Shown: one piece after another, positions 460 to 11,295 of the stretch | Layout: the number at the start of each line of letters is the position of its first letter | Position numbering within the stretch: position 1 is the first letter of the stretch | Source of the DNA: a phage | Assembly (NCBI GenBank): GCA_011982905.1 | Contig: GCA_011982905.1_4767.1 | Direction: 5' to 3' (one strand) | Length of the DNA: 59,846 nucleotides | Notes under the pieces: model-generated | What the model was told of the DNA's origin: nothing | Database searches by the model: none | What the model saw: only the letters and a program-made list of their open reading frames with translations | Translations under genes and position numbers: made by a program

Positions 460-966
460 ATGGAGATTCCACTGATAGTTGAAGATGGTACTGGTGTATC
501 GGACGCCAACAGTTATGTGACCATTGAACAAGTCCGCATGTATGCTGCAATGCGAGGTATTGTACTTCCAAGTGAAGATGAAGATCTAAAGACAAAGATC
601 TTCGACGCTATGGATTTTGTGGAAGGATACGGTCAACGGTTTAAGGGTTACAAAATGGACCCACAGCAACCGCTAAATTGGCCACGCTACGGTGTGTTTG
701 TGGATGGGTTCGAGCTACCCCAAAGCCCCTTACCAAAGGCGCTTATAAACGCTGTTTGCCAGCTTACAGCGGACTCAGCTACTGGCGGTCCTCTTAATGG
801 GAAAACTACTGCATATGCAGTCAAAAGAACTAAAGTAGAAGGTCTTGAGATTGAATACGCAACTGGTAGCACAGCACAGTCAGGTCCAGCAAAAACATAT
901 GATAAAGCTATGACGTTTTTATCACCTTTGCTGGGTTATCAAATGGGTAATAGATTGATACGGTGA
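460..966 (+). CDS. head-tail connector/adaptor-like protein
   Basis: 168-aa ORF with GAGGAAG RBS; first of four small genes between the head genes and the tail tube gene; call is by position and size only. Confidence 0.4.
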   Translation: MEIPLIVEDGTGVSDANSYVTIEQVRMYAAMRGIVLPSEDEDLKTKIFDAMDFVEGYGQRFKGYKMDPQQPLNWPRYGVFVDGFELPQSPLPKALINAVCQLTADSATGGPLNGKTTAYAVKRTKVEGLEIEYATGSTAQSGPAKTYDKAMTFLSPLLGYQMGNRLIR

Positions 967-969
967 TTT

Positions 970-1350
970 ATGAGCTTTCCTTACGAGCAGCTAGTTGAAG
1001 CTGCAAAGCAAATGATCAACGATGCTGGTGTTAACTGTACCCTTGTTGTTATGGAGCAAGGGGAAGGTCAAGATGAATGGGACGATCCGAGAGTTGAAAA
1101 ACGATACCCATTCATTGGAGCTTTCCTTTCACCGAGGGAAAAGATGATCGGTGGAAGCCTTGTTGCGGCTGGTGAACTGAAAGTCTTAACATATCCAATG
1201 ACGCCACCATTGACACGCGATAAAGCAATGACTGCACGCATTGAGCGTATGTCTCCTGATGGTGAGTTGGAAGTATGGACCATCAACGAGTTCGTTGATA
1301 CAAGACCTGCTAATGTTTCTGTTCTTTATACTTTCAAGGTGACGCGATAA
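970..1350 (+). CDS. head-tail joining protein, hypothetical
   Basis: 126-aa ORF packed tightly in the head-tail joining module. Confidence 0.35.
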   Translation: MSFPYEQLVEAAKQMINDAGVNCTLVVMEQGEGQDEWDDPRVEKRYPFIGAFLSPREKMIGGSLVAAGELKVLTYPMTPPLTRDKAMTARIERMSPDGELEVWTINEFVDTRPANVSVLYTFKVTR

Positions 1351-1757
1351 TGGGATTTGGGGCGGATATACGGCGTGCAAGTCAAAAGGTGCTTGTCCAG
1401 ACTGGGGAGCAAGCCAAAAAGGTTGTTGTCAAGTTCACGGAGAATGTAATTCAGGATACTCCTGTTAAGACCGGACGTACAAAAGGCGGTTGGCGTTCAT
1501 CCATTGGTGCACCATATGCGACGGAAACTATCCGCCTCGATCCTACTGGGGAATTAGCTAAAGCGGAAGCTAGGGTTATTGTAAGACAGTTGCCAGATGA
1601 TAAAGACTGGACTTTCTACTTTAGCAACTTAACCCCGTATGCTCCGAAACTTGAATATCTTGGTTGGTCGCAGCAAGCGCCAAATGGCATGGTGCGTATT
1701 AACGTAGCGAAGCTTCCAATGTTGATACGCCAAGCTATTGTAGAAGGAAAACTATAA
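1350..1757 (+). CDS. neck/tail completion protein, HK97 gp10-like
   Basis: 135 aa; TGRTKGGWRSSIG ... YAPKLEYLGW pattern recalled from the HK97 gp10 family; TAATG overlap with upstream gene. Confidence 0.5.
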   Translation: MGFGADIRRASQKVLVQTGEQAKKVVVKFTENVIQDTPVKTGRTKGGWRSSIGAPYATETIRLDPTGELAKAEARVIVRQLPDDKDWTFYFSNLTPYAPKLEYLGWSQQAPNGMVRINVAKLPMLIRQAIVEGKL

Positions 1758-2206
1758 TGCTGGGATACGATTTTATCAATGACGCATTTAATAAGATGCT
1801 ACGCGAAGCCGTTGGACCGGATATCGGTATAGCTTGGAAGAACAAGAAGTTCACACCTAAAGCCAACCAGATGTGGTTAAGGGCAATTAATGCTCCCGCT
1901 TCCACTTACTCTGCAACGCTAGGTGATAACGGTCTGAATGAAATTCCTGGTTTCTACCAAATTACAGTATATAGCCCTTTAAACACTGGAACGTCTAAGC
2001 AGAATCAAATCTTGGATTCTATTCGGAAAAAGTTTAAACTGGGCTTGCGTATCCCGTGCCCGGATGACCACACGTTACGGATTGTCAGTTTAGACTTTTC
2101 GCAAGGTGGACAAACTTCGCTGAACGATTTTACCAAAGGCGGGGTTGAAGATAACTGGGACGTTAACTTTATCACAATCTATTGGTCGGCTCGTGAGCCG
2201 AGGTAA
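1757..2206 (+). CDS. tail terminator-like protein
   Basis: 149-aa ORF directly upstream of the tail tube gene; TAATG coupling; call by position. Confidence 0.35.
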   Translation: MLGYDFINDAFNKMLREAVGPDIGIAWKNKKFTPKANQMWLRAINAPASTYSATLGDNGLNEIPGFYQITVYSPLNTGTSKQNQILDSIRKKFKLGLRIPCPDDHTLRIVSLDFSQGGQTSLNDFTKGGVEDNWDVNFITIYWSAREPR

Positions 2207-2220
2207 GAGAGGATCTAAAT

Positions 2221-3144
2221 ATGGCTACAGGTTCACGTTATTCGTGTTACTACGTCAAAGAAGATGTAAGCAACACTACGCCAGCGAGCGCGAAGTTTAC
2301 CCCGTTCCGTGTGACCAGCTCCGGTCTGGACATTAATATTGCAACGCTGGAATCTGAAGAACTGCGCGATGATGCCGAAACTGCGGATTTCCGCCTCGGT
2401 GCCCGCAGTGTTGAAGGCACAGTAACGGGCGAAATGTCCTTCGGCACCTTCGATGATCTTATTGCTGCTGCACTTCGTGGGGAGTGGCAAGACAACGTCC
2501 TTAAAGGCGGTATTGTCCGTCAGTCGTTTACTTTCGTAGACTATAACGCAGATCTGCCGTCAGGTAAATATACAATTTATCGCGGTTGCGAAGTTAATAG
2601 CATGACTTTCTCATTGTCTGCGGAAAACATGACCACAGTGGAATTTGGCATTGTTGGCCGCTCGATGGAGATTGCGGAATCGCTCCCATCTGGTGCAACT
2701 ATCAAAGACCGTACGACTACTTCACCGATGGATGGTTTCTCCGGTCGCTTGCTGGAAAACGACGAAGAAATCAGCGTTATTACGGAAATCGGTCTTACCG
2801 TGGAAAACGATATTGCGCCACGCTTTGTTGTTGGTTCTAAGTTCTCCATTGAACCGTCCGCTGGTCGTCGTGCGGTAACTGGTACAGCTAATGTGTACTT
2901 CCTGGATAACAAGCTGCGTATGAAGTATCTGGATGAAGTGGAAACTTCAATCAAGTTTGATCTGATTGACCCAAGCAATCCGGAACAAAAATACACTGTG
3001 GAAATCCCTCGCGTGAAATTCACTGAAGCTCCGCGTCCTATTGACGGTGAAGGGGATATCATGCTTAATATGGGCTACCGCGGATTGCTGGACCCAACAA
3101 CCGCAAGTTCCATCAAAATTACCCGCGTTGTAGCGGGAGCCTAA
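2221..3144 (+). CDS. major tail (tube) protein
   Basis: 307-aa ORF with strong RBS immediately upstream of the chaperone and tape measure genes; Ser/Thr/Gly-rich beta-type composition. Confidence 0.6.
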   Translation: MATGSRYSCYYVKEDVSNTTPASAKFTPFRVTSSGLDINIATLESEELRDDAETADFRLGARSVEGTVTGEMSFGTFDDLIAAALRGEWQDNVLKGGIVRQSFTFVDYNADLPSGKYTIYRGCEVNSMTFSLSAENMTTVEFGIVGRSMEIAESLPSGATIKDRTTTSPMDGFSGRLLENDEEISVITEIGLTVENDIAPRFVVGSKFSIEPSAGRRAVTGTANVYFLDNKLRMKYLDEVETSIKFDLIDPSNPEQKYTVEIPRVKFTEAPRPIDGEGDIMLNMGYRGLLDPTTASSIKITRVVAGA

Positions 3145-3153
3145 GGATAAGAA

Positions 3154-3561
3154 ATGACCGACACCAAAAAAGCCAAAGTTGCAGTAGCTAAAAGCTTCCG
3201 TGATTTTAAAACTGTGAGCCGGGCTAACGACCCGGCAAACACTAAGCCAATGAATGTGGTTATTCCTGGTGTAGGCGACACCGGCGAAAAACTCTACATT
3301 CGTAGCCGCTACTGCACAGAGTACCGTGATGCCGAACTGAAAGCACAGCGTCAACTGTTGGCGCTTATGCAGGGTAAAGATGGTGAAGTAACGGATGCTA
3401 TGAAGGAAGATATCCTTACCCGTTCACTGTGTAACCTTGTAGCAGGTTGGACTTTTGACGAGCCACCAACTGTTGACAACGTGTTTGAGTTCTTGACGGA
3501 GAACCCAACTGTCCGAGAAGACCTTAACGTATTTGCCGCTAAAGATAGTAATTTTTTCTAA
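3154..3561 (+). CDS. tail assembly chaperone (lambda G-like)
   Basis: 135-aa acidic ORF between tail tube and tape measure genes; ends ...DSNFF* within a T6 run. Confidence 0.65.
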   Translation: MTDTKKAKVAVAKSFRDFKTVSRANDPANTKPMNVVIPGVGDTGEKLYIRSRYCTEYRDAELKAQRQLLALMQGKDGEVTDAMKEDILTRSLCNLVAGWTFDEPPTVDNVFEFLTENPTVREDLNVFAAKDSNFF

Positions 3562-3959
3562 AAGCGCGCAGACAGTTAATTGATAAGAAGATCCTCCAAT
3601 GGGAACTAAATAGTAAAGTCCCCGGCGGGGGATCTTCTTTATTATCGCAACTGCAAAAGGTTGAGGAACAGTCTGGTAAGACGCCACCTAAGCTTAAAGA
3701 ATATCGGGAAAAGGAAATACCGCTTTGCTTCGAATATCTATCTACTTTATTTGATGATATCTACACTGGAGGAGATTTTAGTTATACAGAATTGCACAGC
3801 TATCAAGTGACAATGGGCTTACATCTTCAACCGTACGAATGCGAAATACTGCGGCAGCTATGGCTTGAAAAGCGCGTGTCTGAAGCTGAACAAAATGCTA
3901 AACTCATGGAAAGTCAAATGCAAAATCAGAATAAAGGTAGAAGGAAAAGGAGAAGGTAA
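3154..3959 (+). CDS. tail assembly chaperone -1 frameshift fusion product (G-T-like)
   Basis: Slippery heptamer T_TTT_TTC at 3552-3558; the -1 frame is open for 133 codons from 3558 and ends in TAA at 3957-3959, overlapping the tape measure ATG (TAATG); no in-frame start codon near its 5' end. Confidence 0.55.
3552..3558 (+). promoter_or_regulatory. candidate -1 ribosomal slippery site (T_TTT_TTC)
   Basis: XXXYYYZ heptamer at the 3' end of the chaperone ORF, in the position conserved for G/GT frameshifting in tailed phages. Confidence 0.5.
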
Positions 3960-6900
3960 TGGCCGAAACTGCTTCGCTAGTAATCAGGGTTGACGCGAAA
4001 GGGATTAGCACAGCGGACTCCATGCTGCGTAACCTTGCGCGTACAGGTGACACAGCGGAGCGTTCCGCTCAACGTGTCACATCCAGCTATAAAACATTGT
4101 CTAACACATCTAACGAACTTGCAACTGTCACAAGTCGTTTAGATGCTGCAATTGTAGGAATGATCAGCGTTGACACCATTAACCGTGTTATTTCGCTATC
4201 GGACTCCTGGACTATCCTCACCAACAAACTTGAACTGGCTCGTACTGGTAATGAAACCGTTGCGGATGCACAGCAACGCGTGTTTGATATTGCCCAGCGG
4301 TCACGTACAAGCTTGGAAGCAACTGCAACTCTATATTCCCGTCTCCAGCGTGCAATGAAGAATACTGGTATGACTGGTATGGAGCTTGGACGTATCACTG
4401 AAACAATTAACAAAGCGATGATTGTTTCCGGTGCAACGTCACATGAAGCAAGCGCTGCTCTTATTCAGTTTTCGCAAGCAATGGCATCCGGTGTTTTGCG
4501 CGGGGATGAATTCCGTTCTGTTGCAGAACAAGCCCCGCGCTTAACTCAAATCATGTCCGATGCGTTAGGTGTTACCATTGGACAATTGCGTGAAATGGCT
4601 TACAGCGGCAAGTTGAGCGCCGATGTGGTTATCAAATCGTTGTCTGGTGCTGCGGATACAATTGATAAAGAATTTAACCGCACTATGCCAACGTTCAACC
4701 AACAATGGACGATTGCAACAAACAACCTGACTAAATTTATGGGTGAGTCCCAAAAGACTCAAGGTGCGGTCGCTGCATTGGGACAGACGTTTGTTGCATT
4801 ATCCGAAAACTTAGGAACGGTTGTAACGGTTGGTTCAGCTTTAGCCACAGTGATTACCGCCCGTATCATTACGGCAATGCTTGCTAAGACTAAAGCGTCT
4901 ATAGCTGCTGCAAAAGCATCACAGATGGAAGCTGCACAAACGGCGGCAACTACTGCGGTGATGCAAAGCTCTATTGGCGTTACTGCACAGAAAGCGGCTG
5001 CGGATCGTGCTGCTTCTCTTGCAGCGTTACAGGTTGCTCGCGGGTCATTAGCGGTTGCTAAAGGTACGGCAGCGGAAGCAGGCGCACGTCTTGCGCTTAT
5101 TAATGCTACCCGTGCGCATTCTGCTGCAATTATGGCGGACGTACAAGCGCGGCAAGCGCTCAATGCTGCGCTTAATGCAACTGTACCAGCCGCAAGTCGA
5201 GCCGCTACAGCAATGAGCGTGCTGCGCGGTGCTATGGGGTTAATTGGCGGTCCTGTTGGTGTAGCAATGCTGGCAGCGGGTGCAATTTACTCCTATAAAG
5301 CGTCGCTGGAAGCTGGTCGTGCGGAAAACAATCAGTTTGCGGATAGTGTTGATGCTGTACGCGAAAAACTGATGCAGATGACAGAAGCTCAGTTGGCAGC
5401 CAACGCAGTTAAAGCTAGAGCAATTCTCCCCGAACTTGAAGAGCAAATGAAGCGAGAGCAAACTGCTCTTAAATCTGCAACGGAAACGCAGAAGTTCTAT
5501 GAAGCACAGTTAAAACGTCGTGCTGCGTCCGGTCGTGATACAGCCAGTGCTGAAAAGAACTTACAAGTTGCAACGGATAACGTCAAGCTTGCTGCCGAGC
5601 GTGCTGAAGAAGCTCAACGTCGTTACAACAATGTCTTAGAAATGACAAGCCCTGCTATCGAGAAAATAATTCCGTTAGCTCGTCAGCTTGCTGCTGATAT
5701 GAAGGCTGTTCTTAGCATCAAATCCGGTCCGCTTATTGACGAGAAAGTGCTTGATCGTTTTAAAGGTCAGTTAGGTGACGTTAACCGTGAGATCGACGTT
5801 AACACGGTTAAAGGAGCTGGTAACGCTCGCCAGGCTGCAATCCTTAGTGGGCTGTATCAAACTCTGGGCAAAGATGCAGACACCTACGGAAGTCTAATTC
5901 GCAAAGTAGCTATGGGGCAGGATGTTAGCTCTGAAGCGACAAGCGAGTCCTCAAAAGAACTTGTTAAATATGCACAAGAGTTAGCAGAAGCCTACGGCAA
6001 GAATTATGATCTCGAGGAAGCGGAGAGGAACCGAACTAAAGCGACAAAAGATGCTATTAAGGCAGATCAGCAAAATGCTAAGGTTATTGACGATTTACGC
6101 AACAAGCTTAACGAAGTAACCACAGGGGTTAAGGAAAACGCTAAAGCTAAAGCGCAAGCTGTAGCACTCAATAAGTTAAATGCGTCCGCAACAGCTGCGG
6201 AAAAAGCAGAAGTTGTTAGTCTTGCTGCTGCAATTTACGATGCAGAAGAAGCTCAAAAGAAACTGGACGAGCGTAAGAAGAATCGTAAGTTTGCTCAGGG
6301 TCTGTTAGATGAAGGTATGACAGACTATGAAAAAATCGCGTACGAGCAAAATACAAAGATTGCAGAGCTTAACGCAAAACAGCGAGCCGATGATTTAGCT
6401 TACTATCAGCTTTACGAAGATGCTAAAACCCAAGTGCTGAAAAAAGCAAGCATGGAAAGGGAAAACCTGGATAAAGTTCTTATGAACCGAATGATATCCT
6501 TTTCTCAGGAATCGTTGGGTATTATACTGTCAGGGCTGGAAGAAGGTGTTAGTAAGCAGAACTTTATTTATAAGGCAATGTTTGCCGCACAGAAAGCAAT
6601 GCAAATCCCATCAATCCTTGCTAACACGGAAACCGCGGCATCTGCGGCGCTTGCGTGGGGTACACAGCAAGGCGGTGCTACAATGGGCGCAGCTATGGCT
6701 GGAATTGTTAAAGCTATGGGTTATGCGTCCGCTGCTACTGTGGGTGGCTTAGCAATCGCTGGCATGGCACACGATGGTATTGATAATGTTCCACGCGAAG
6801 GTACATGGTTATTGGATAAAGGTGAACGCGTACTTAATGCTCCGTCTAATGACAAGTTAAACCGCTTCCTGGATAGCCAAGCTTCACAACAAGGTGGCGT

Positions 6901-7075
6901 GAATATGTCTGGTGGTGTTAGCATTGTCCAGTATATCACGGTGCAAGGGAATGGCGATGCTGCACTCACGCAAGCCATGCAGCAAGCGGCTCGTGATGGT
7001 GCGGAGCAGGGATATAATAAAGTTCTTACAGACTTTGCATCCCGAGGAACAATTCGTAGAACTGCAATGGGGTAA
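3959..7075 (+). CDS. tail tape measure protein
   Basis: 1038-aa ORF with Ala/Gln/Lys-rich coiled-coil-like composition, placed between the frameshifted chaperone and the distal tail genes. Confidence 0.85.
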   Translation: MAETASLVIRVDAKGISTADSMLRNLARTGDTAERSAQRVTSSYKTLSNTSNELATVTSRLDAAIVGMISVDTINRVISLSDSWTILTNKLELARTGNETVADAQQRVFDIAQRSRTSLEATATLYSRLQRAMKNTGMTGMELGRITETINKAMIVSGATSHEASAALIQFSQAMASGVLRGDEFRSVAEQAPRLTQIMSDALGVTIGQLREMAYSGKLSADVVIKSLSGAADTIDKEFNRTMPTFNQQWTIATNNLTKFMGESQKTQGAVAALGQTFVALSENLGTVVTVGSALATVITARIITAMLAKTKASIAAAKASQMEAAQTAATTAVMQSSIGVTAQKAAADRAASLAALQVARGSLAVAKGTAAEAGARLALINATRAHSAAIMADVQARQALNAALNATVPAASRAATAMSVLRGAMGLIGGPVGVAMLAAGAIYSYKASLEAGRAENNQFADSVDAVREKLMQMTEAQLAANAVKARAILPELEEQMKREQTALKSATETQKFYEAQLKRRAASGRDTASAEKNLQVATDNVKLAAERAEEAQRRYNNVLEMTSPAIEKIIPLARQLAADMKAVLSIKSGPLIDEKVLDRFKGQLGDVNREIDVNTVKGAGNARQAAILSGLYQTLGKDADTYGSLIRKVAMGQDVSSEATSESSKELVKYAQELAEAYGKNYDLEEAERNRTKATKDAIKADQQNAKVIDDLRNKLNEVTTGVKENAKAKAQAVALNKLNASATAAEKAEVVSLAAAIYDAEEAQKKLDERKKNRKFAQGLLDEGMTDYEKIAYEQNTKIAELNAKQRADDLAYYQLYEDAKTQVLKKASMERENLDKVLMNRMISFSQESLGIILSGLEEGVSKQNFIYKAMFAAQKAMQIPSILANTETAASAALAWGTQQGGATMGAAMAGIVKAMGYASAATVGGLAIAGMAHDGIDNVPREGTWLLDKGERVLNAPSNDKLNRFLDSQASQQGGVNMSGGVSIVQYITVQGNGDAALTQAMQQAARDGAEQGYNKVLTDFASRGTIRRTAMG

Positions 7076-7078
7076 TAT

Positions 7079-7663
7079 ATGCTCACTTGGCCTGAAGAGC
7101 TTAGACCATCGGAAATGGAATGGTATCTAGTTTCAAACGCTGTAGAATTTACAAGCCCCTTCAATGGGGCTTCCCAAACTGTGTCATATCCCGGATCTCG
7201 TTGGGAAGCGACACTGACATTTAGCAACTTAAATGACTGGCAATCCAGAAAGCTTGAATCAACGTTAGCTAAACTTGATGGCAAAGCTGGTCGCATTATG
7301 CTTCAGGATTTTGGTCGCTGGGGTAGGGCTCCAATGGGATTACCTGTGGTTAATGGCGCAAATAACACTGGGACAACTTTATCAACTAAGGGGTGGACTC
7401 CTGACCGTAAGGTACTATGGGAAGGGGACTATATCGCAGTAAACAATGAATTAAAATTGATAACAGAAGATGCTTGGAGTGATTCTTCTGGTAACGTGAT
7501 TTTAAACATTGCCCCAATGTTAAGAAGCATCCCTCCAAACGGTGCGAAGATTGAAACTCAGAAACCACAAGGATCTTTCCGTTTAGCTGAAAACACAAAT
7601 GGAGTTAAACGTCAACCTGCATTTAATAACTCCTTTACTCTAAAATTCTCGGAGGCATTCTAA
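7079..7663 (+). CDS. distal/minor tail protein (lambda M-like)
   Basis: 194-aa ORF directly after the tape measure gene; weak recalled resemblance to lambda gpM. Confidence 0.5.
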   Translation: MLTWPEELRPSEMEWYLVSNAVEFTSPFNGASQTVSYPGSRWEATLTFSNLNDWQSRKLESTLAKLDGKAGRIMLQDFGRWGRAPMGLPVVNGANNTGTTLSTKGWTPDRKVLWEGDYIAVNNELKLITEDAWSDSSGNVILNIAPMLRSIPPNGAKIETQKPQGSFRLAENTNGVKRQPAFNNSFTLKFSEAF

Positions 7664-8247
7664 TGTTATTCAGTCCGTTTAGCGATAGCCTTCTTAGCGC
7701 AATGGAGCAACCAAACGTCGCGCTAGTGTTGGCAGCGGAAATAGACTTCCCTTCCGGTATCACCCGCGTGCATACCGGAACAGGAACTGTTATTATCAAT
7801 GGTCAGACTTTTCTTGGTGTAGGTACTCTAGGGGATGTTGGATCGGTTACAGAAGAAAACAGCACAAGCTCAAGCACTATGTCCATGGCACTTAGCGGTC
7901 TGGATATGAGTCTTGTAGGGGAGACGTTAAACGAAGAAGTTATTGGCCGCAATGTTATTTGCTATCTTGCGGTTATGAACGATCAAGGCGTTGTCACTGG
8001 TGCAAACGTATTATTTGAAGGGTTTATTACAGATACAGCTTTACAAGCAGGACAACAAAATGCTTTGAGCTATGTTATTGCCAATGTCTTTGAGCGTTGG
8101 TCACAAGGTTTACCGGATCGATATACGGATGAAAGTCAACAGCGTTTACATCCAGGCGATCGGTTCTTTAGATATGTCGCACAAATGGCTGAACGTTCGA
8201 TCTTTTGGGGGAGTAAAAAAGATGCGCCAGGATTCACGTATGAGTAA
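7663..8247 (+). CDS. minor tail protein (lambda L-like)
   Basis: 194 aa; GGAGG RBS and TAATG overlap; position between M-like and K-like genes. Confidence 0.5.
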   Translation: MLFSPFSDSLLSAMEQPNVALVLAAEIDFPSGITRVHTGTGTVIINGQTFLGVGTLGDVGSVTEENSTSSSTMSMALSGLDMSLVGETLNEEVIGRNVICYLAVMNDQGVVTGANVLFEGFITDTALQAGQQNALSYVIANVFERWSQGLPDRYTDESQQRLHPGDRFFRYVAQMAERSIFWGSKKDAPGFTYE

Positions 8248-8656
8248 AATGCCAGGATGGCAGACACGTTTATTAACCACAGTAAAGGAGTTGGCATCGA
8301 CTCCTTTTTCTTGGGGCGAAAACGATTGCTGTACGTTTGCCGCTAAATGTGTTGATGCACAATACAACACAAATATTTATAATCAGATAGCAGGTAAATA
8401 TAGCACAGAGCTTGGAAGCAAGAGATTCTCAATTGAAAAAGTCGGGACAGCTTATCTTCCAACCTTGCTTGACGCTTACCTGAGTGAGCGTGTTGATAAG
8501 AACTTTGCACAAAGAGGAGATGTGGTTACATTTGAGGGAGCATTGGGCTTAACTGCTGGCATATTATGGACGGGATATGTATGGGCTATGGGTCCGAACG
8601 GTGTGGAAACATTCCCGCTTAATAAGATCAAAATTACGGATATTTGGAGGGTCTAA
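8222..8656 (+). CDS. tail tip assembly protein (lambda K-like, papain/NlpC-like motif)
   Basis: ATG at 8222 preceded by GGGGGAG; the tracked ORF from 8072 is probably an upstream extension; ENDCCTF motif suggests an NlpC/P60-type fold. Confidence 0.45.
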   Translation: MRQDSRMSKMPGWQTRLLTTVKELASTPFSWGENDCCTFAAKCVDAQYNTNIYNQIAGKYSTELGSKRFSIEKVGTAYLPTLLDAYLSERVDKNFAQRGDVVTFEGALGLTAGILWTGYVWAMGPNGVETFPLNKIKITDIWRV

Positions 8657-11295
8657 TGCCACCAGCAATAATTGGAGCAGCAATAGCTTTAGGTGCTTCC
8701 GCTGCCGCTGCGGCGGGGTGGATTGCTACGGGCGTAGCTTTAGCTATTGGTATGGCTGCAACTGCGGCGGGTGCTCTTTTAACTAAGACACCTAATATGA
8801 ACTTTAATGCTTATAAAGGTCAACAAGATCGTAAACAGGTTTTACGAGCAGCCGCAGCGTCTCGAACAGTAGTGTATGGCACAACGGTCGCTTCCGGAGT
8901 TATGACGTTTGCCGAGGAGCAGCCTGGAGATCAGGACGAAGACGAACTCCTGCATATGGCTCTTGTTGTAGCTTCACATCCATTGGAGGGAATTGGTGAT
9001 ATTTGGCTTGGGGATGACCTTGTACAGACTTTCGAACAGTATGTCACTTGGGAATTCCATAACGACCGTCAGACTGTAGATCCATTCATGTTAAGCAATT
9101 GCCCTTCCTGGAAAGAGGATATGATCGGGAAAGGGATTGCATGGCTTCGTATTAGCTTTAAATTTAATGCGGAAAAATTCCCGTCTGGTTTGCCAAACAT
9201 TAAGCTTCTTAAAAGAGGTCGCCGTGTATATGATCCTCGTTCTGGTTATACCATATTTAGCGATAATGCAGCGTTAGTAATACTTGATTACTTCCGCACG
9301 TATTTAAAGCGCAAAGATGAAGATATTAACTGGGACCAATTCAAAGAAGCCGCTAACATCTGTGATGAATACGTCAATAACGCTGATGGTTCTACAGAGC
9401 GCCGTTATAAAATCAACGGTGAATTTGAAGTAGATGAAGCCCCATCCAAAATTCTGGATGCTATGTTGCAAGCTTGTGGCGGCGAGCTAACGTATGTAGC
9501 GGGTAAACACGGTCTTCTGGTTGGCGCATATTACGGTCCAGCAACAATGACGCTGGACGAAAGTTGTATTGCTGGGGATATTAAAATTGTTCCAGAAACT
9601 TCTTATAAGGAGCGCACCAACACCATCACAGGGACATTTATTGATCCAAAGCAAAACTATGTTGAAGCGGACTTTCCTCCAGTTGTGGTTAAGGAATGGG
9701 TGGAAAAGGACGGCGGTGAAATAACGCAAGACATGGATTTCCGATTTGTAACAAGCGAATATCAAGCCCAACGTTTGTCTAATATTATTCTACGTCGTAA
9801 ACGTGTTGGCCGCACAATTGAAATTCCTTGTAACATGAAGGGTTATAAATTTCGTCCAGGAATGTATGTAAAAGTTACCATCACGCAGATTGGCATGAAG
9901 AATGTTGAAATGCGCGTTACCAAATGGTCTTTTAACCCTAAAGGTGGGGTTAACCTTACCTTACGTCAAGATTTCCTGGAAATGTGGGACGATGCAATTG
10001 GTAAACCTATGGACCGACCGGATCTTGTAGACTTGCCAAGTGGTGGTGTTGCTCAACCTCAAAATCTCCAATACCAGATATTGCAGATTAGCGATGTGGT
10101 ACAGGGGGTATTATCCTGGACCAACATGGGGCAAGTTGCATACAACCGCGTAGCTGTGCGACAGGGAGGCGTTACTATTTGGACCGCACAAGTCCCTGGC
10201 CAAAGCGTTCGTGTCACTGGGTTGCTGCGTGGGGCGTATACTGCGCACGTTCAAGCTGTATCGCACAGTGGAGCAATATCACCGGAAGCTTATTTGGAGT
10301 TTAATATTCAAGCACCACCGCCACCTTCATCTGTTGAGATACAGAACGGTTATTTTTCTTTAACTCTTATACCAAAGATTGCAGAGCTCACTAGTGTTAG
10401 CACACAATTTGATTTCTGGACGTCTGGTGAAACAAAACTGCCGTCTGCTAATACAGATGTTGTTGAGCGCGATGCAACCCGTGAAGGTATGGGAACTATA
10501 TGGCAGAAAAATAACTTACTCAATGACCACACTTATTACTGGTATGTAAGAACTATCAATGCTTTTGGGTCGTCCGCGTTTGTGGAAGTTGAAGCTCGTG
10601 TATGGGCAGAAACTGCACAGATCATAGAAATTATGGATAAAGAGTTTCAAGAAACTGAAACTTTCAAAAACCTCATGGAGACTGTGCAAAAGGTTGATGA
10701 CGGTGTAACGGAATTGTCCAAAGTAGTTGAAGGACAAGCTACAAAAATTGAATCGGTTCAGAGTAGTGTGGGTGATGTTGTTGTTACCGTGCAAGAGCAA
10801 TCGCAAGCACTAGCAGATCTTAATGGCAAACTTTCTGCTCAATGGGGACAAAAGGTTCAAATAGACAATAATGGCAACAAATACGTTGCAGGTATGCAGT
10901 TAGGTATTGAAGGTAGCGGAGGACAATTCCAGTCTTACTTTATGGTGAGCGCTGATAACTTTGCTATTTATAATCCTGTAGCGGGAGCAGCACAGCTTGC
11001 TTTTGCTATTAAAAACGGTCAAAGTTTCTTACAAGAAGCTTTTATTGAAAACGGATCGATTACCAACGCTAAGATTGGTAATGTTATCCAGTCCAATAAC
11101 TGGAATGGTAACGATCAAGGTTGGGCAATTACAAAAGACGGTTATTGCGTATTTAATAACGTAACCGTCAGAGGGACAGTTGTTGCTAACGCTGGTCAAT
11201 TTGGTTTCAATGGAAATGGAGGTATTACAATTGATAGTAATGGTATTCGCGTTCCGTTATCCGGTGGGGGTGTTGTCATAGTAGGACGCTGGTGA
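8644..11295 (+). CDS. tail tip / host specificity protein (lambda J-like, with gpI-like N-terminal segment)
   Basis: 883 aa; Gly/Ala-rich hydrophobic N-terminus like the lambda I C-terminus; C-terminal half carries J-like motifs (YYWYVRTINAFGSSAFVE, KYVAGMQLG, FLQEAFIENGSITNAKI). Confidence 0.8.
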   Translation: MEGLMPPAIIGAAIALGASAAAAAGWIATGVALAIGMAATAAGALLTKTPNMNFNAYKGQQDRKQVLRAAAASRTVVYGTTVASGVMTFAEEQPGDQDEDELLHMALVVASHPLEGIGDIWLGDDLVQTFEQYVTWEFHNDRQTVDPFMLSNCPSWKEDMIGKGIAWLRISFKFNAEKFPSGLPNIKLLKRGRRVYDPRSGYTIFSDNAALVILDYFRTYLKRKDEDINWDQFKEAANICDEYVNNADGSTERRYKINGEFEVDEAPSKILDAMLQACGGELTYVAGKHGLLVGAYYGPATMTLDESCIAGDIKIVPETSYKERTNTITGTFIDPKQNYVEADFPPVVVKEWVEKDGGEITQDMDFRFVTSEYQAQRLSNIILRRKRVGRTIEIPCNMKGYKFRPGMYVKVTITQIGMKNVEMRVTKWSFNPKGGVNLTLRQDFLEMWDDAIGKPMDRPDLVDLPSGGVAQPQNLQYQILQISDVVQGVLSWTNMGQVAYNRVAVRQGGVTIWTAQVPGQSVRVTGLLRGAYTAHVQAVSHSGAISPEAYLEFNIQAPPPPSSVEIQNGYFSLTLIPKIAELTSVSTQFDFWTSGETKLPSANTDVVERDATREGMGTIWQKNNLLNDHTYYWYVRTINAFGSSAFVEVEARVWAETAQIIEIMDKEFQETETFKNLMETVQKVDDGVTELSKVVEGQATKIESVQSSVGDVVVTVQEQSQALADLNGKLSAQWGQKVQIDNNGNKYVAGMQLGIEGSGGQFQSYFMVSADNFAIYNPVAGAAQLAFAIKNGQSFLQEAFIENGSITNAKIGNVIQSNNWNGNDQGWAITKDGYCVFNNVTVRGTVVANAGQFGFNGNGGITIDSNGIRVPLSGGGVVIVGRW

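What the first reader, a model, noticed from the sequence alone, without database searches (positions are those of the whole stretch)
3154..3959. Programmed -1 frameshift in the tail assembly chaperone gene
The chaperone ORF ends ...AAT TTT TTC TAA. The heptamer T_TTT_TTC (3552-3558) is a textbook XXXYYYZ slippery site, and the -1 frame is then open for 133 codons with no start codon of its own, ending in a TAA that overlaps the tape measure ATG. This is the conserved G/GT arrangement of long-tailed phages; read directly from the sequence, it would escape annotation from ORF calls alone.
Basis: partly seen in the sequence, partly recalled or inferred. Interest (0 to 1): 0.5.

Follow-up and report, generated by a model that had tools for sequence, protein, structure and literature searches.

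The report
Known tail-chaperone −1 frameshift, confirmed
This is the ordinary programmed −1 ribosomal frameshift that long-tailed phages use to make a small amount of an extended tail-assembly chaperone, and the same fused protein is already annotated in the GenBank record of the sister phage Seurat.

Summary
The window is a Seuratvirus (Queuovirinae) coliphage. Gene G (3154-3561, 135 aa) ends AAT TTT TTC TAA. T_TTT_TTC (3552-3558) is in the X_XXY_YYZ register. The −1 frame opens exactly at 3552, after TAG TAA, and runs to TAA 3957-3959, which overlaps the tape-measure ATG at 3959. The only place a −1 shift can happen is this heptamer.

The −1 ORF is protein-coding: 36 of 48 variable sites are third positions, and synonymous to non-synonymous changes are 73:15. 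It matches Pfam Phage_TAC_18. Its first canonical start codon is 80 codons in. Gene order is tail terminator, tube, G/T, tape measure.

About 90 non-identical relatives, down to about 21% identity and up to about 66% G+C, keep the −1 arrangement and an in-register slippery site at the same spot. That site is T_TTT_TTC, T_TTT_TTA, A_AAT_TTT or A_AAA_AAG.

It is not new. The deposited Seurat fusion is 267/268 identical to my predicted fusion, with the same junction.

Corrections: the fusion is 268 aa and 30.9 kDa. The "GC hairpin" is part of a larger stem-loop (about 3581-3645) that starts 22 nt after the heptamer, too far for a canonical stimulator. Its role is unexplained.

The parts
1757..2206 (+). 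Tail terminator gene (synteny context)
   Evidence: PHROG 179 'tail terminator', E = 4e-29.
2221..3144 (+). Tail tube (major tail) protein gene, immediately upstream of G
   Evidence: Pfam PF18906 Phage_tube_2, E = 5e-41. PHROG 290.
3154..3561 (+). Gene G: tail assembly (tape measure) chaperone, 135 aa, 15.2 kDa. This is the zero-frame product, ending ...DSNFF*.
   Evidence: PHROG 313 'tail assembly chaperone', E = 3e-11. PHROG 569 profile positions 11-126. Weak Pfam Phage_TAC_4 match in 12 of 14 family members. The same 135-aa protein is named 'tape measure chaperone' in several GenBank records.
3546..3551 (+). Two -1-frame stop codons (TAG TAA) that close the -1 frame right up to the heptamer
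   Evidence: the -1 frame opens at 3552.
3552..3558 (+). Slippery heptamer T_TTT_TTC (U_UUU_UUC). Both tRNA-Phe can re-pair on UUU UUU in the -1 frame.
   Evidence: Register read from the sequence. Conserved or replaced by another efficient heptamer in relatives. H_HH.U_UU.Y is listed among the most efficient motifs in E. coli (PMC4066793).
3559..3561 (+). Zero-frame stop TAA directly 3' of the heptamer. It is a possible 'shifty stop' contribution to the shift.
   Evidence: The adjacency holds only in Seuratvirus- and Nonagvirus-like relatives, not in the whole family.
3558..3959 (+). T extension: 133 codons in the -1 frame (LKARRQ...RKRRR) plus stop. It is expressed only as the C-terminal half of the 268-aa GT fusion, join(3154..3558, 3558..3959).
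   Evidence: Open frame. Coding signal: 36 of 48 variable sites at third position; synonymous to non-synonymous 73:15 against 9:79 and 8:80 in the other frames. In the start-less part 3558-3791, 22 of 27 variable sites are at third position. Pfam PF23812 Phage_TAC_18, E = 1e-9, above its cut-off, and matched in 14 of 14 relatives. PHROG 569 profile positions 129-256. 267/268 identity to the deposited Seurat fusion.
3581..3645 (+). Long imperfect RNA stem-loop inside the T coding region. Core arms are AAGAAGAUCCUCC and GGGGGAUCUUCUU. Role unknown.
   Evidence: MFE -33.7 kcal/mol, z = -4.3. Rank 1 by MFE and rank 2 by z among 537 windows of 80 nt in 460-11200. The 13-bp core arms, the 4-bp inner stem and 2 of the 3 innermost pairs are unchanged in STP-SP5 (73.5% nt identity over the T region), whose other changes here lie in loops, the bulge and the AU-rich stem base. 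Relatives have a stable hairpin at about the same place but in different pairing registers. A terminator-like match was also reported.
3959..7075 (+). Tape measure protein gene. Its ATG overlaps the T stop (TAATG), and an AAGGAG Shine-Dalgarno-like motif precedes it.
   Evidence: Pfam TMP_3, E = 6.5e-60. PHROG 339, E = 4e-177. Sequence.

Best explanation
Genes G and T of this Seuratvirus phage are expressed as in phage lambda.

Most ribosomes translate G (3154-3561) and terminate at TAA 3559-3561. This gives the 15-kDa chaperone gpG.

A minority slip back one nucleotide on U_UUU_UUC (3552-3558). The two tRNA-Phe in the P and A sites re-pair with UUU UUU, which are also Phe codons, so pairing stays cognate. 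The next codon read is then CUA (3558-3560), and translation continues in the -1 frame to TAA 3957-3959. The product is a 268-aa, 30.9-kDa fusion, gpGT, with the junction ...AAKDSNFF-LKARRQ...

By analogy with lambda, the G part binds the tape measure protein and the T part recruits the tube protein. Both products act in tail assembly and are absent from virions.

What is shown here: the anatomy, the coding constraint on the -1 frame, the family assignments, and the conservation or substitution of the slippery site.

What is inferred: that the shift happens, its efficiency, and the protein interactions.

The likely stimulators in this phage are the intrinsically efficient heptamer and the adjacent zero-frame stop. 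The large hairpin 22 nt downstream is probably not a canonical stimulator.
For: 1. Anatomy. The heptamer is in register. The -1 frame opens exactly at it and the zero frame closes directly after it. The T stop overlaps the tape-measure ATG.

2. The -1 ORF is a real coding region with no start of its own. Among close relatives, 36 of 48 variable sites fall at its third codon positions. Synonymous to non-synonymous changes are 73:15, against 9:79 and 8:80 in the other frames. The same bias (22 of 27) holds in the 3558-3791 stretch, which has no ATG, GTG or TTG. In STP-SP5 the three changed codons within the first ten -1-frame codons after the heptamer are all synonymous (CAG>CAA, TTA>CTC, ATT>ATA).

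3. Identity. Tube protein upstream and tape measure downstream. T matches Pfam Phage_TAC_18 above its cut-off here and in 14 of 14 relatives. G matches PHROG 313 'tail assembly chaperone'. One PHROG profile (569, 256 positions) covers G and then T contiguously.

4. Comparative. All 17 relatives fetched from GenBank, from 9g to Pseudomonas and Xanthomonas phages at 21-28% identity, have the -1 T ORF and T_TTT_TTC or T_TTT_TTA in register. Among 79 unique IMG/VR overlap sequences, the same site is T_TTT_TTC or T_TTT_TTT (41), A_AAT_TTT (17), A_AAA_AAG (6) or T_TTT_TTA with T_TTA_AAG/C (4). A few have only a U_UUU tetramer. The canonical heptamers belong to the class reported as most efficient in E. 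coli, except T_TTT_TTA, which in EC151-like phages is overlapped by U_UUA_AAG from that class (PMC4066793).

5. Independent annotators reached the same join. The Seurat and SA80RD records carry a two-piece joined 'tape measure chaperone' CDS, with the slippage note on the paired G entry (Seurat position 10236 = window 3555). The deposited Seurat 268-aa fusion is 267/268 identical, with the same junction.

6. The lambda paradigm: a G to GT ratio of about 30:1, with both products needed for tail assembly (review PMC5009743).
Against: - There is no experimental evidence for this genus. No paper in the searched library reports a fusion peptide or a reporter assay.
- No RNA structure lies at the canonical 5-9-nt spacing. 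The first 45 nt downstream fold no better than shuffled sequence (z = +1.7).
- G matches Pfam Phage_TAC_4 only below its cut-off.
- No solved structure is detectable by sequence.
- Several deposited genomes annotate the distal part of T as a separate small ORF from an internal start.
Confidence: 0.93

Rival explanations
1. Transcriptional slippage. RNA polymerase adds an extra U in the T6 run, so a fraction of mRNAs carry G and T in one frame and ribosomes translate GT without shifting.
For: The site is a homopolymeric T6 run here and T7 in 9g-like phages. The resulting protein would be the same or nearly the same. Only a few percent of GT is needed (lambda ratio of about 30:1; PMC5009743).
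Against: Relatives keep the function with A_AAT_TTT (A3T4) or with only U_UUU. These are too short for polymerase slippage but are good ribosomal motifs. In every relative the site sits in the X_XXY_YYZ register of the G frame, which matters only for tRNA re-pairing. From my own knowledge, appreciable slippage by E. coli RNA polymerase needs longer runs, about 8-9 or more.
Confidence: 0.04
2. T is made as a separate protein by independent initiation or termination-reinitiation. The start would be an internal codon (TTG 3792, GTG 3807, ATG 3813) or a non-canonical codon near the G stop, as several database records annotate.
For: The GottfriedDienst, STP-SP5, 9g, Vid5, EC151 and PaMx11 records call a separate downstream ORF.
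Against: The first canonical start is 80 codons into the ORF. It lies after the Phage_TAC_18 match begins and after the most conserved motifs (G25, K39, GKTP). Third-position bias (22 of 27) and amino-acid conservation begin at the heptamer. The only near-cognate candidate, ATT 3579, is ATA in STP-SP5. No Shine-Dalgarno motif is visible by eye before the internal starts. The called internal starts differ from record to record.
Confidence: 0.02
3. Artefact or pseudogene. G and T are one gene split by a homopolymer sequencing error or a recent frameshift mutation.
For: Homopolymer runs are error-prone, and Seurat was sequenced by 454 (PMC4342423).
Against: The same arrangement is found in 35 closely related genomes from different laboratories and in about 90 non-identical distant relatives. 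The -1 frame carries two stops immediately 5' of the run and the zero frame carries a stop immediately 3'. This is a designed overlap, not an accidental break.
Confidence: 0.01

Closest known systems
Phage lambda gpG/gpGT programmed -1 frameshift (Levin, Hendrix and Casjens 1993; conserved across long-tailed phages, Xu, Hendrix and Duda 2004; reviewed in PMC5009743)
   Same: Two overlapping ORFs between the major tail gene and the tape-measure gene. The second ORF is in the -1 frame with no start of its own. There is an X_XXY_YYZ heptamer in the overlap. The sizes are similar: about 15 kDa for G and about 31 kDa for GT.
   Different: The heptamer is U_UUU_UUC, not lambda's G_GGA_AAG. The overlap is reduced to the 7-nt heptamer, flanked by stops in both frames. 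No sequence similarity to lambda G or T was tested or seen here. T belongs to Pfam Phage_TAC_18.
Escherichia phage Seurat 'tape measure chaperone' CPT_Seurat13/14 (KM236243.1; AIW03877.1 and AIW03876.1); also SA80RD and SA126VB
   Same: This is the same gene pair. The fusion is 267/268 identical, with the same junction and the same slippage position.
   Different: None of substance. That annotation is itself computational. The genome announcement only lists the gene (PMC4342423).
Bacterial -1 frameshift signals with a close downstream stimulator (dnaX, IS911, IS3)
   Same: A slippery heptamer of the efficient E. coli class. A stable RNA structure lies downstream.
   Different: In those signals the stimulator lies about 5-9 nt from the heptamer. 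Here the stem-loop base is at +22 and its GC core at +26. No upstream Shine-Dalgarno-like stimulator is visible.

Membership tests
G/GT tail assembly chaperone frameshift of long-tailed phages (Xu et al. 2004 definition) | Two ORFs located between the major tail (tube) gene and the tape measure gene | tested here: met
   Tube gene 2221-3144 (PF18906), G 3154-3561, T to 3959, tape measure 3959-7075 (TMP_3).
G/GT tail assembly chaperone frameshift of long-tailed phages (Xu et al. 2004 definition) | The second ORF overlaps the 3' end of the first in another frame and lacks its own start or ribosome binding site | tested here: met
   The -1 frame is open from 3552. The first ATG, GTG or TTG is at 3792. 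Coding constraint starts at the heptamer.
G/GT tail assembly chaperone frameshift of long-tailed phages (Xu et al. 2004 definition) | A slippery sequence in the overlap, in the register of the upstream frame | tested here: met
   T_TTT_TTC at 3552-3558, the only possible position. Chance is about 0.35% per position.
G/GT tail assembly chaperone frameshift of long-tailed phages (Xu et al. 2004 definition) | The arrangement is conserved in relatives even where the sequence has diverged | tested here: met
   17 GenBank relatives and 79 unique IMG/VR overlaps keep the -1 arrangement. The heptamer is conserved or swapped for another efficient one.
G/GT tail assembly chaperone frameshift of long-tailed phages (Xu et al. 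2004 definition) | A fusion protein GT is made at a low, fixed ratio to G and is required for tail assembly | not testable with these tools
   This needs mass spectrometry, western blotting, a reporter assay or genetics. No report was found for this genus.
Pfam tail assembly chaperone families | Profile match above the curated cut-off | tested here: met
   The T part matches PF23812 Phage_TAC_18 at 38.8 bits against a cut-off of 27, and 14 of 14 relatives match. The G part matches PF08748 Phage_TAC_4 only below its cut-off (14.3 against 21.1 bits), although 12 of 14 relatives match weakly. The G part also matches PHROG 313 'tail assembly chaperone' at E = 3e-11.
Canonical bacterial -1 PRF signal (heptamer plus 3' stimulatory structure) | A stable stem-loop or pseudoknot starting about 5-9 nt 3' of the heptamer | tested here: not met
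   The first 45 nt downstream fold at -1.5 kcal/mol, z = +1.7. The best hairpin starting at +3 to +11 is only -5.8 kcal/mol. The strong stem-loop starts at +22. This feature is not required for the G/GT class.

The most novel reading that the evidence does not exclude
The conserved, unusually stable stem-loop 22-35 nt downstream of the heptamer in Seuratvirus-, Nonagvirus-, Vid5- and EC151-like phages may be a functional RNA element tied to the recoding site. It would act at a non-canonical distance. One possibility is that it stalls the rare frameshifted ribosome so that the next ribosome queues on the heptamer. Another is that it acts as an mRNA-stabilising or attenuating boundary between the heavily translated G and the sparsely translated T region. 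Either way it would help set the G:GT:tape-measure ratio.
Probability: 0.15. Interest if true: 0.45.

Novelty: already known. Interest (0 to 1): 0.12.

Why it matters
For biology, little is new. This is another instance of the conserved G/GT recoding that sets the chaperone ratio for tail assembly, and it is already annotated for the type phage of the genus.

The practical value is for annotation:
- Most relatives' records (9g, STP-SP5, the BASEL phages, Vid5, EC151, PaMx11, Ab18 and others) split or omit the T part.
- RefSeq and PHROG 569 label G and GT as 'tail length tape measure protein'.
- The family-wide survey gives a simple rule for fixing these records: for Phage_TAC_18 chaperones, join at the in-register U_UUU_UUC, A_AAU_UUU or A_AAA_AAG site.

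The downstream stem-loop at a non-canonical distance is the only part that might repay an experiment.

Tried and rejected
- RNAalifold on 18 in-register sequences (heptamer plus 113 nt) found no consensus structure. The hairpins of different lineages use different pairing registers, with column sums of 117, 119, 122 and 137. Classical covariation across the whole family therefore cannot be claimed. Only within the 9g/Kpn2-P2 group do 2 of 8 pairs show compensatory change.
- Synonymous-site suppression in the hairpin was tested between the window and STP-SP5. 4 of 19 codons changed, against 30 of 71 elsewhere. Fisher p = 0.11, not significant.
- Rfam gave only sub-threshold generic hairpin (miRNA-precursor) matches at 3568-3665.
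- The hairpin as an intrinsic terminator: a terminator-like match exists in the window, but 9g- and Kpn2-like hairpins lack a U-tract. I do not adopt this reading.
- I looked for a trade-off in which a close hairpin is present only when the G stop is far from the heptamer. The trend exists (median -17 against -9.6 kcal/mol) but is confounded by G+C content.
- A pseudoknot between the loop AUAGUAAAG and CUUUAUUAU, found by eye, is not conserved in STP-SP5 and was dropped.
- The five '+1' cases in the first IMG/VR tally were artefacts of open frames in high-GC sequence or of truncated contigs.
- PDB searches by sequence profile gave no credible relatives.
- The first attempt to seed a collection scan with the full 14-sequence alignment failed for lack of a conserved block. 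One structure-scan script timed out.
- Structure prediction and the large protein searches were not run. The chaperone identity did not depend on them.
- Literature searches found no experimental work on this frameshift in Queuovirinae.

Full report
**What the window is.** Megablast of 2200-4400 against GenBank phages gives 35 records at 80-98% identity over the full length. Nearly all are Escherichia phages of the genus Seuratvirus (Queuovirinae): slur01 at 97.8%, CAjan at 97.2% and Seurat at 93.7%. The local gene order is tail terminator (1757-2206, PHROG 179), tail tube protein (2221-3144, Pfam Phage_tube_2, E = 5e-41), the two ORFs in question, tape measure protein (3959-7075, Pfam TMP_3, E = 6.5e-60), distal tail protein, tail protein and central fibre. 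This is the standard lambda-like tail module.

**Checking the observation.** The sequence reads ...GAT AGT AAT TTT TTC TAA in the frame of the 135-codon ORF 3154-3561. T_TTT_TTC therefore lies at 3552-3558 in the X_XXY_YYZ register. The -1 frame reads ...TAG TAA TTT TTT CTA AAA... It is closed until 3551, opens exactly at the first base of the heptamer, and stays open to TAA 3957-3959. That stop shares an A with the tape-measure ATG at 3959. The +1 frame closes after seven codons. The overlap of the two frames is just the heptamer, so a -1 shift can only occur there.

In-register heptamers of this kind occupy 0.35% of codon positions in long ORFs of the window. Those of the efficient E. coli class occupy 0.07%. 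The coincidence is therefore unlikely by chance, even before relatives are considered.

- The -1 ORF does contain in-frame TTG 3792, GTG 3807 and ATG 3813, but only after 80 codons.
- The fusion is 268 aa and 30.9 kDa; G alone is 15.2 kDa.
- The GC hairpin is part of a larger structure (see below).

**Is the -1 ORF translated, and from where?** Among seven non-identical close relatives, 36 of 48 variable sites in 3552-3959 fall on third positions of the -1 frame. Substitutions are 73 synonymous to 15 non-synonymous in that frame, against 9:79 and 8:80 in the other two frames. In the part that has no start codon (3558-3791), 22 of 27 variable sites are third positions. In Salmonella phage STP-SP5 (73.5% nucleotide identity over T), the three changed codons just after the heptamer are all synonymous in the -1 frame: CAG>CAA, TTA>CTC and ATT>ATA. 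The last change also removes the only near-cognate start candidate.

The translated extension matches Pfam Phage_TAC_18 above its cut-off (E = 1e-9), as do all 14 diverse relatives (best E = 1e-22). G matches PHROG 313 'tail assembly chaperone' (E = 3e-11). It matches Pfam Phage_TAC_4 only weakly, as do most relatives (12 of 14). One PHROG profile (569, 256 positions) is matched by G at positions 11-126 and by T at 129-256, so it was built from fused proteins. T is therefore a protein-coding continuation of G that is read in the -1 frame from the heptamer.

**Comparative evidence.** A tblastn search with the predicted fusion finds 119 phage records. In most, the match is split into two pieces in different frames. 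I fetched 17 of them. They ranged from Seuratvirus through Nonagvirus (9g), Vid5, EC151 and Providencia PSTCR4 to Klebsiella, Pseudomonas (PaMx11, PaMx74, Ab18, PSA28) and Xanthomonas phages, down to 21-28% identity and up to about 66% G+C downstream of the site.

Every one has T in the -1 frame. Every one has T_TTT_TTC in register at the aligned position. EC151 instead has T_TTT_TTA overlapping T_TTA_AAG. The two phenylalanines are the only invariant residues at the end of G and at the start of T.

Two scans of IMG/VR seeded with T-domain alignments added 125 loci with 79 distinct overlap sequences. All interpretable ones have the -1 arrangement. Five apparent '+1' cases were artefacts. The site is:
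- T_TTT_TTC or T_TTT_TTT in 41;
- A_AAT_TTT in 17;
- A_AAA_AAG in 6;
- T_TTT_TTA plus T_TTA_AAG/C in 4;
- only a U_UUU tetramer in a few.

In the systematic E. coli study of all 64 heptamers, H_HH.U_UU.Y, V_VV.A_AA.R and U_UU.A_AA.G are listed among the most efficient motifs. The rule given there is that the A-site tRNA must re-pair cognately (PMC4066793). That holds here, because UUC to UUU keeps tRNA-Phe cognate. One efficient slippery motif replacing another at a fixed place in a diverging protein family is the classic comparative signature of programmed frameshifting.

**Mechanism.** The best-supported model is tandem -1 slippage of the two tRNA-Phe on U_UUU_UUC. After the slip, CUA is read as the next codon, giving ...DSNFF-LKARRQ... 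A single P-site slip while the ribosome waits at the adjacent UAA (a 'shifty stop') would give the same protein, so the two cannot be separated computationally.

The stop directly abuts the heptamer only in Seuratvirus- and Nonagvirus-like phages. Elsewhere it lies 1-39 codons further on. It can therefore be at most a lineage-specific enhancer.

The function of the two products is taken from lambda (review PMC5009743) and is not tested here. In lambda, G coats the tape measure, the T domain of GT recruits the tube protein, the ratio is about 30:1, and neither product is in virions.

**The hairpin.** The minimum-energy fold of 3552-3660 places it inside an imperfect stem-loop of about 24 bp spanning about 3581-3645 (-33.7 kcal/mol, z = -4.3). 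Among 537 windows of 80 nt across 460-11200, it has the lowest energy and the second-lowest z. Its 13-bp core arms, the 4-bp inner stem and two of the three innermost pairs are unchanged in STP-SP5. STP-SP5's other differences within 3581-3645 fall in loops, at the bulge and at the AU-rich base of the stem.

Relatives in other genera also fold into a stable hairpin starting 26-35 nt after the heptamer, but with different arm sequences. In 16 diverse loci, the window just 3' of the heptamer is the most structured of about 60 windows in 6 loci, and in the top three in 10.

The evidence has limits:
- The hairpins use different pairing registers, so RNAalifold finds no consensus.
- Within the 9g/Kpn2-P2 group, only 2 of 8 pairs show compensatory change.
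- Synonymous-site suppression against STP-SP5 is not significant (p = 0.11).
- Rfam has nothing matching.

Most importantly, the stem base is 22 nt from the heptamer and the core is 26 nt away. Canonical bacterial stimulators sit about 5-9 nt away. The first 45 nt downstream of the heptamer are unstructured (z = +1.7). I therefore do not accept the hairpin as the stimulator and leave its role open. In the high-GC Pseudomonas and Xanthomonas relatives, a GGUCGAGC...GCUCGACC stem does begin 6-8 nt after the heptamer, but G+C content confounds that comparison.

**Rivals.**
- Transcriptional slippage on the T6 run would give the same product. However, relatives manage with A3T4 or with U4 only, and the register is always that required for tRNA re-pairing.
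- Independent initiation of T is what several records annotate. It is contradicted by coding constraint and conservation that start at the heptamer, 80 codons before any start codon.
- A sequencing error or pseudogene is excluded by recurrence in dozens of independent genomes.

**Comparison with what is known, and novelty.** This is the lambda G/GT arrangement in a family whose T domain is Pfam Phage_TAC_18. It has a different heptamer and a minimal 7-nt overlap. It is not new for this genus:
- The Seurat GenBank record (KM236243.1) carries a two-piece joined CDS 'tape measure chaperone' (CPT_Seurat14). The paired G entry (CPT_Seurat13) is noted 'ribosomal slippage (10236)', which corresponds to window 3555.
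- SA80RD carries the same join and SA126VB deposits the same 268-aa fusion.
- The deposited Seurat fusion AIW03876.1 is 267/268 identical to my prediction, with the same junction.

The genome announcement only lists the gene (PMC4342423). I found no experimental confirmation for any Queuovirinae phage.

**Verdict.** The novelty class is 'already known', and interest is low. The residual points of interest are the widespread mis-annotation in relatives and the unexplained stem-loop at a non-canonical distance.

Noticed in passing
window 3581-3645 (and the aligned place in L004, L005, L007, L008, L009, L038, L039): An unusually stable imperfect stem-loop lies inside the T coding region, 22-35 nt 3' of the slippery heptamer. 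It recurs in several genera with different arm sequences and pairing registers. That is too far for a canonical frameshift stimulator, and its role is unknown.
   Followed up: partly
L013, L015, L017, L091 and other high-GC relatives, +6 to +55 nt after their heptamer: Pseudomonas and Xanthomonas relatives have a GGUCGAGC...GCUCGACC stem that begins 6-8 nt after T_TTT_TTC and ends at the G stop codon. The spacing is canonical for a stimulator. G+C content confounds the comparison with the enteric group.
   Followed up: partly
Public records of relatives; PHROG 569: Annotation is inconsistent. RefSeq and PHROG 569 call G and GT 'tail length tape measure protein'. Many records (9g, STP-SP5, GottfriedDienst, Vid5, EC151, PaMx11, Ab18, Kokobel2) annotate T as a separate ORF from differing internal starts, or omit it. 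Only Seurat, SA80RD and SA126VB were seen here to carry the joined or 268-aa fusion.
   Followed up: yes
window 7079-7663, 7663-8247, 8072-8656: Three consecutive mechanical ORFs of exactly 194 aa. They are unrelated: distal tail protein PHROG 1302, tail protein PHROG 2048 and PHROG 2134. The third probably starts near 8246, since its profile match covers residues 59-194. The equal lengths are a coincidence.
   Followed up: yes
L045, L046, L047, L052, L058 (IMG/VR contigs): A subgroup of distant relatives has no full X_XXY_YYZ heptamer at the homologous site, only a U_UUU tetramer (for example GCC AAT TTT ATC, or GCG GTT TTT ACC). This suggests that A-site-only slippage of tRNA-Phe may suffice there.
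   Followed up: no
MH230177.1 (hits H24 and H26): A record named Aeromonas phage SD04 (host Aeromonas schubertii) matches the query fusion at 100% over the 262 aligned residues (98% of it) and is about 94% identical in nucleotide sequence to E. coli Seuratvirus phages. That is an unexpected host label for this genus.
   Followed up: no
window 1-59846: ARAGORN finds no tRNA genes in the window, so decoding at the slip site relies on host tRNA-Phe.
   Followed up: yes
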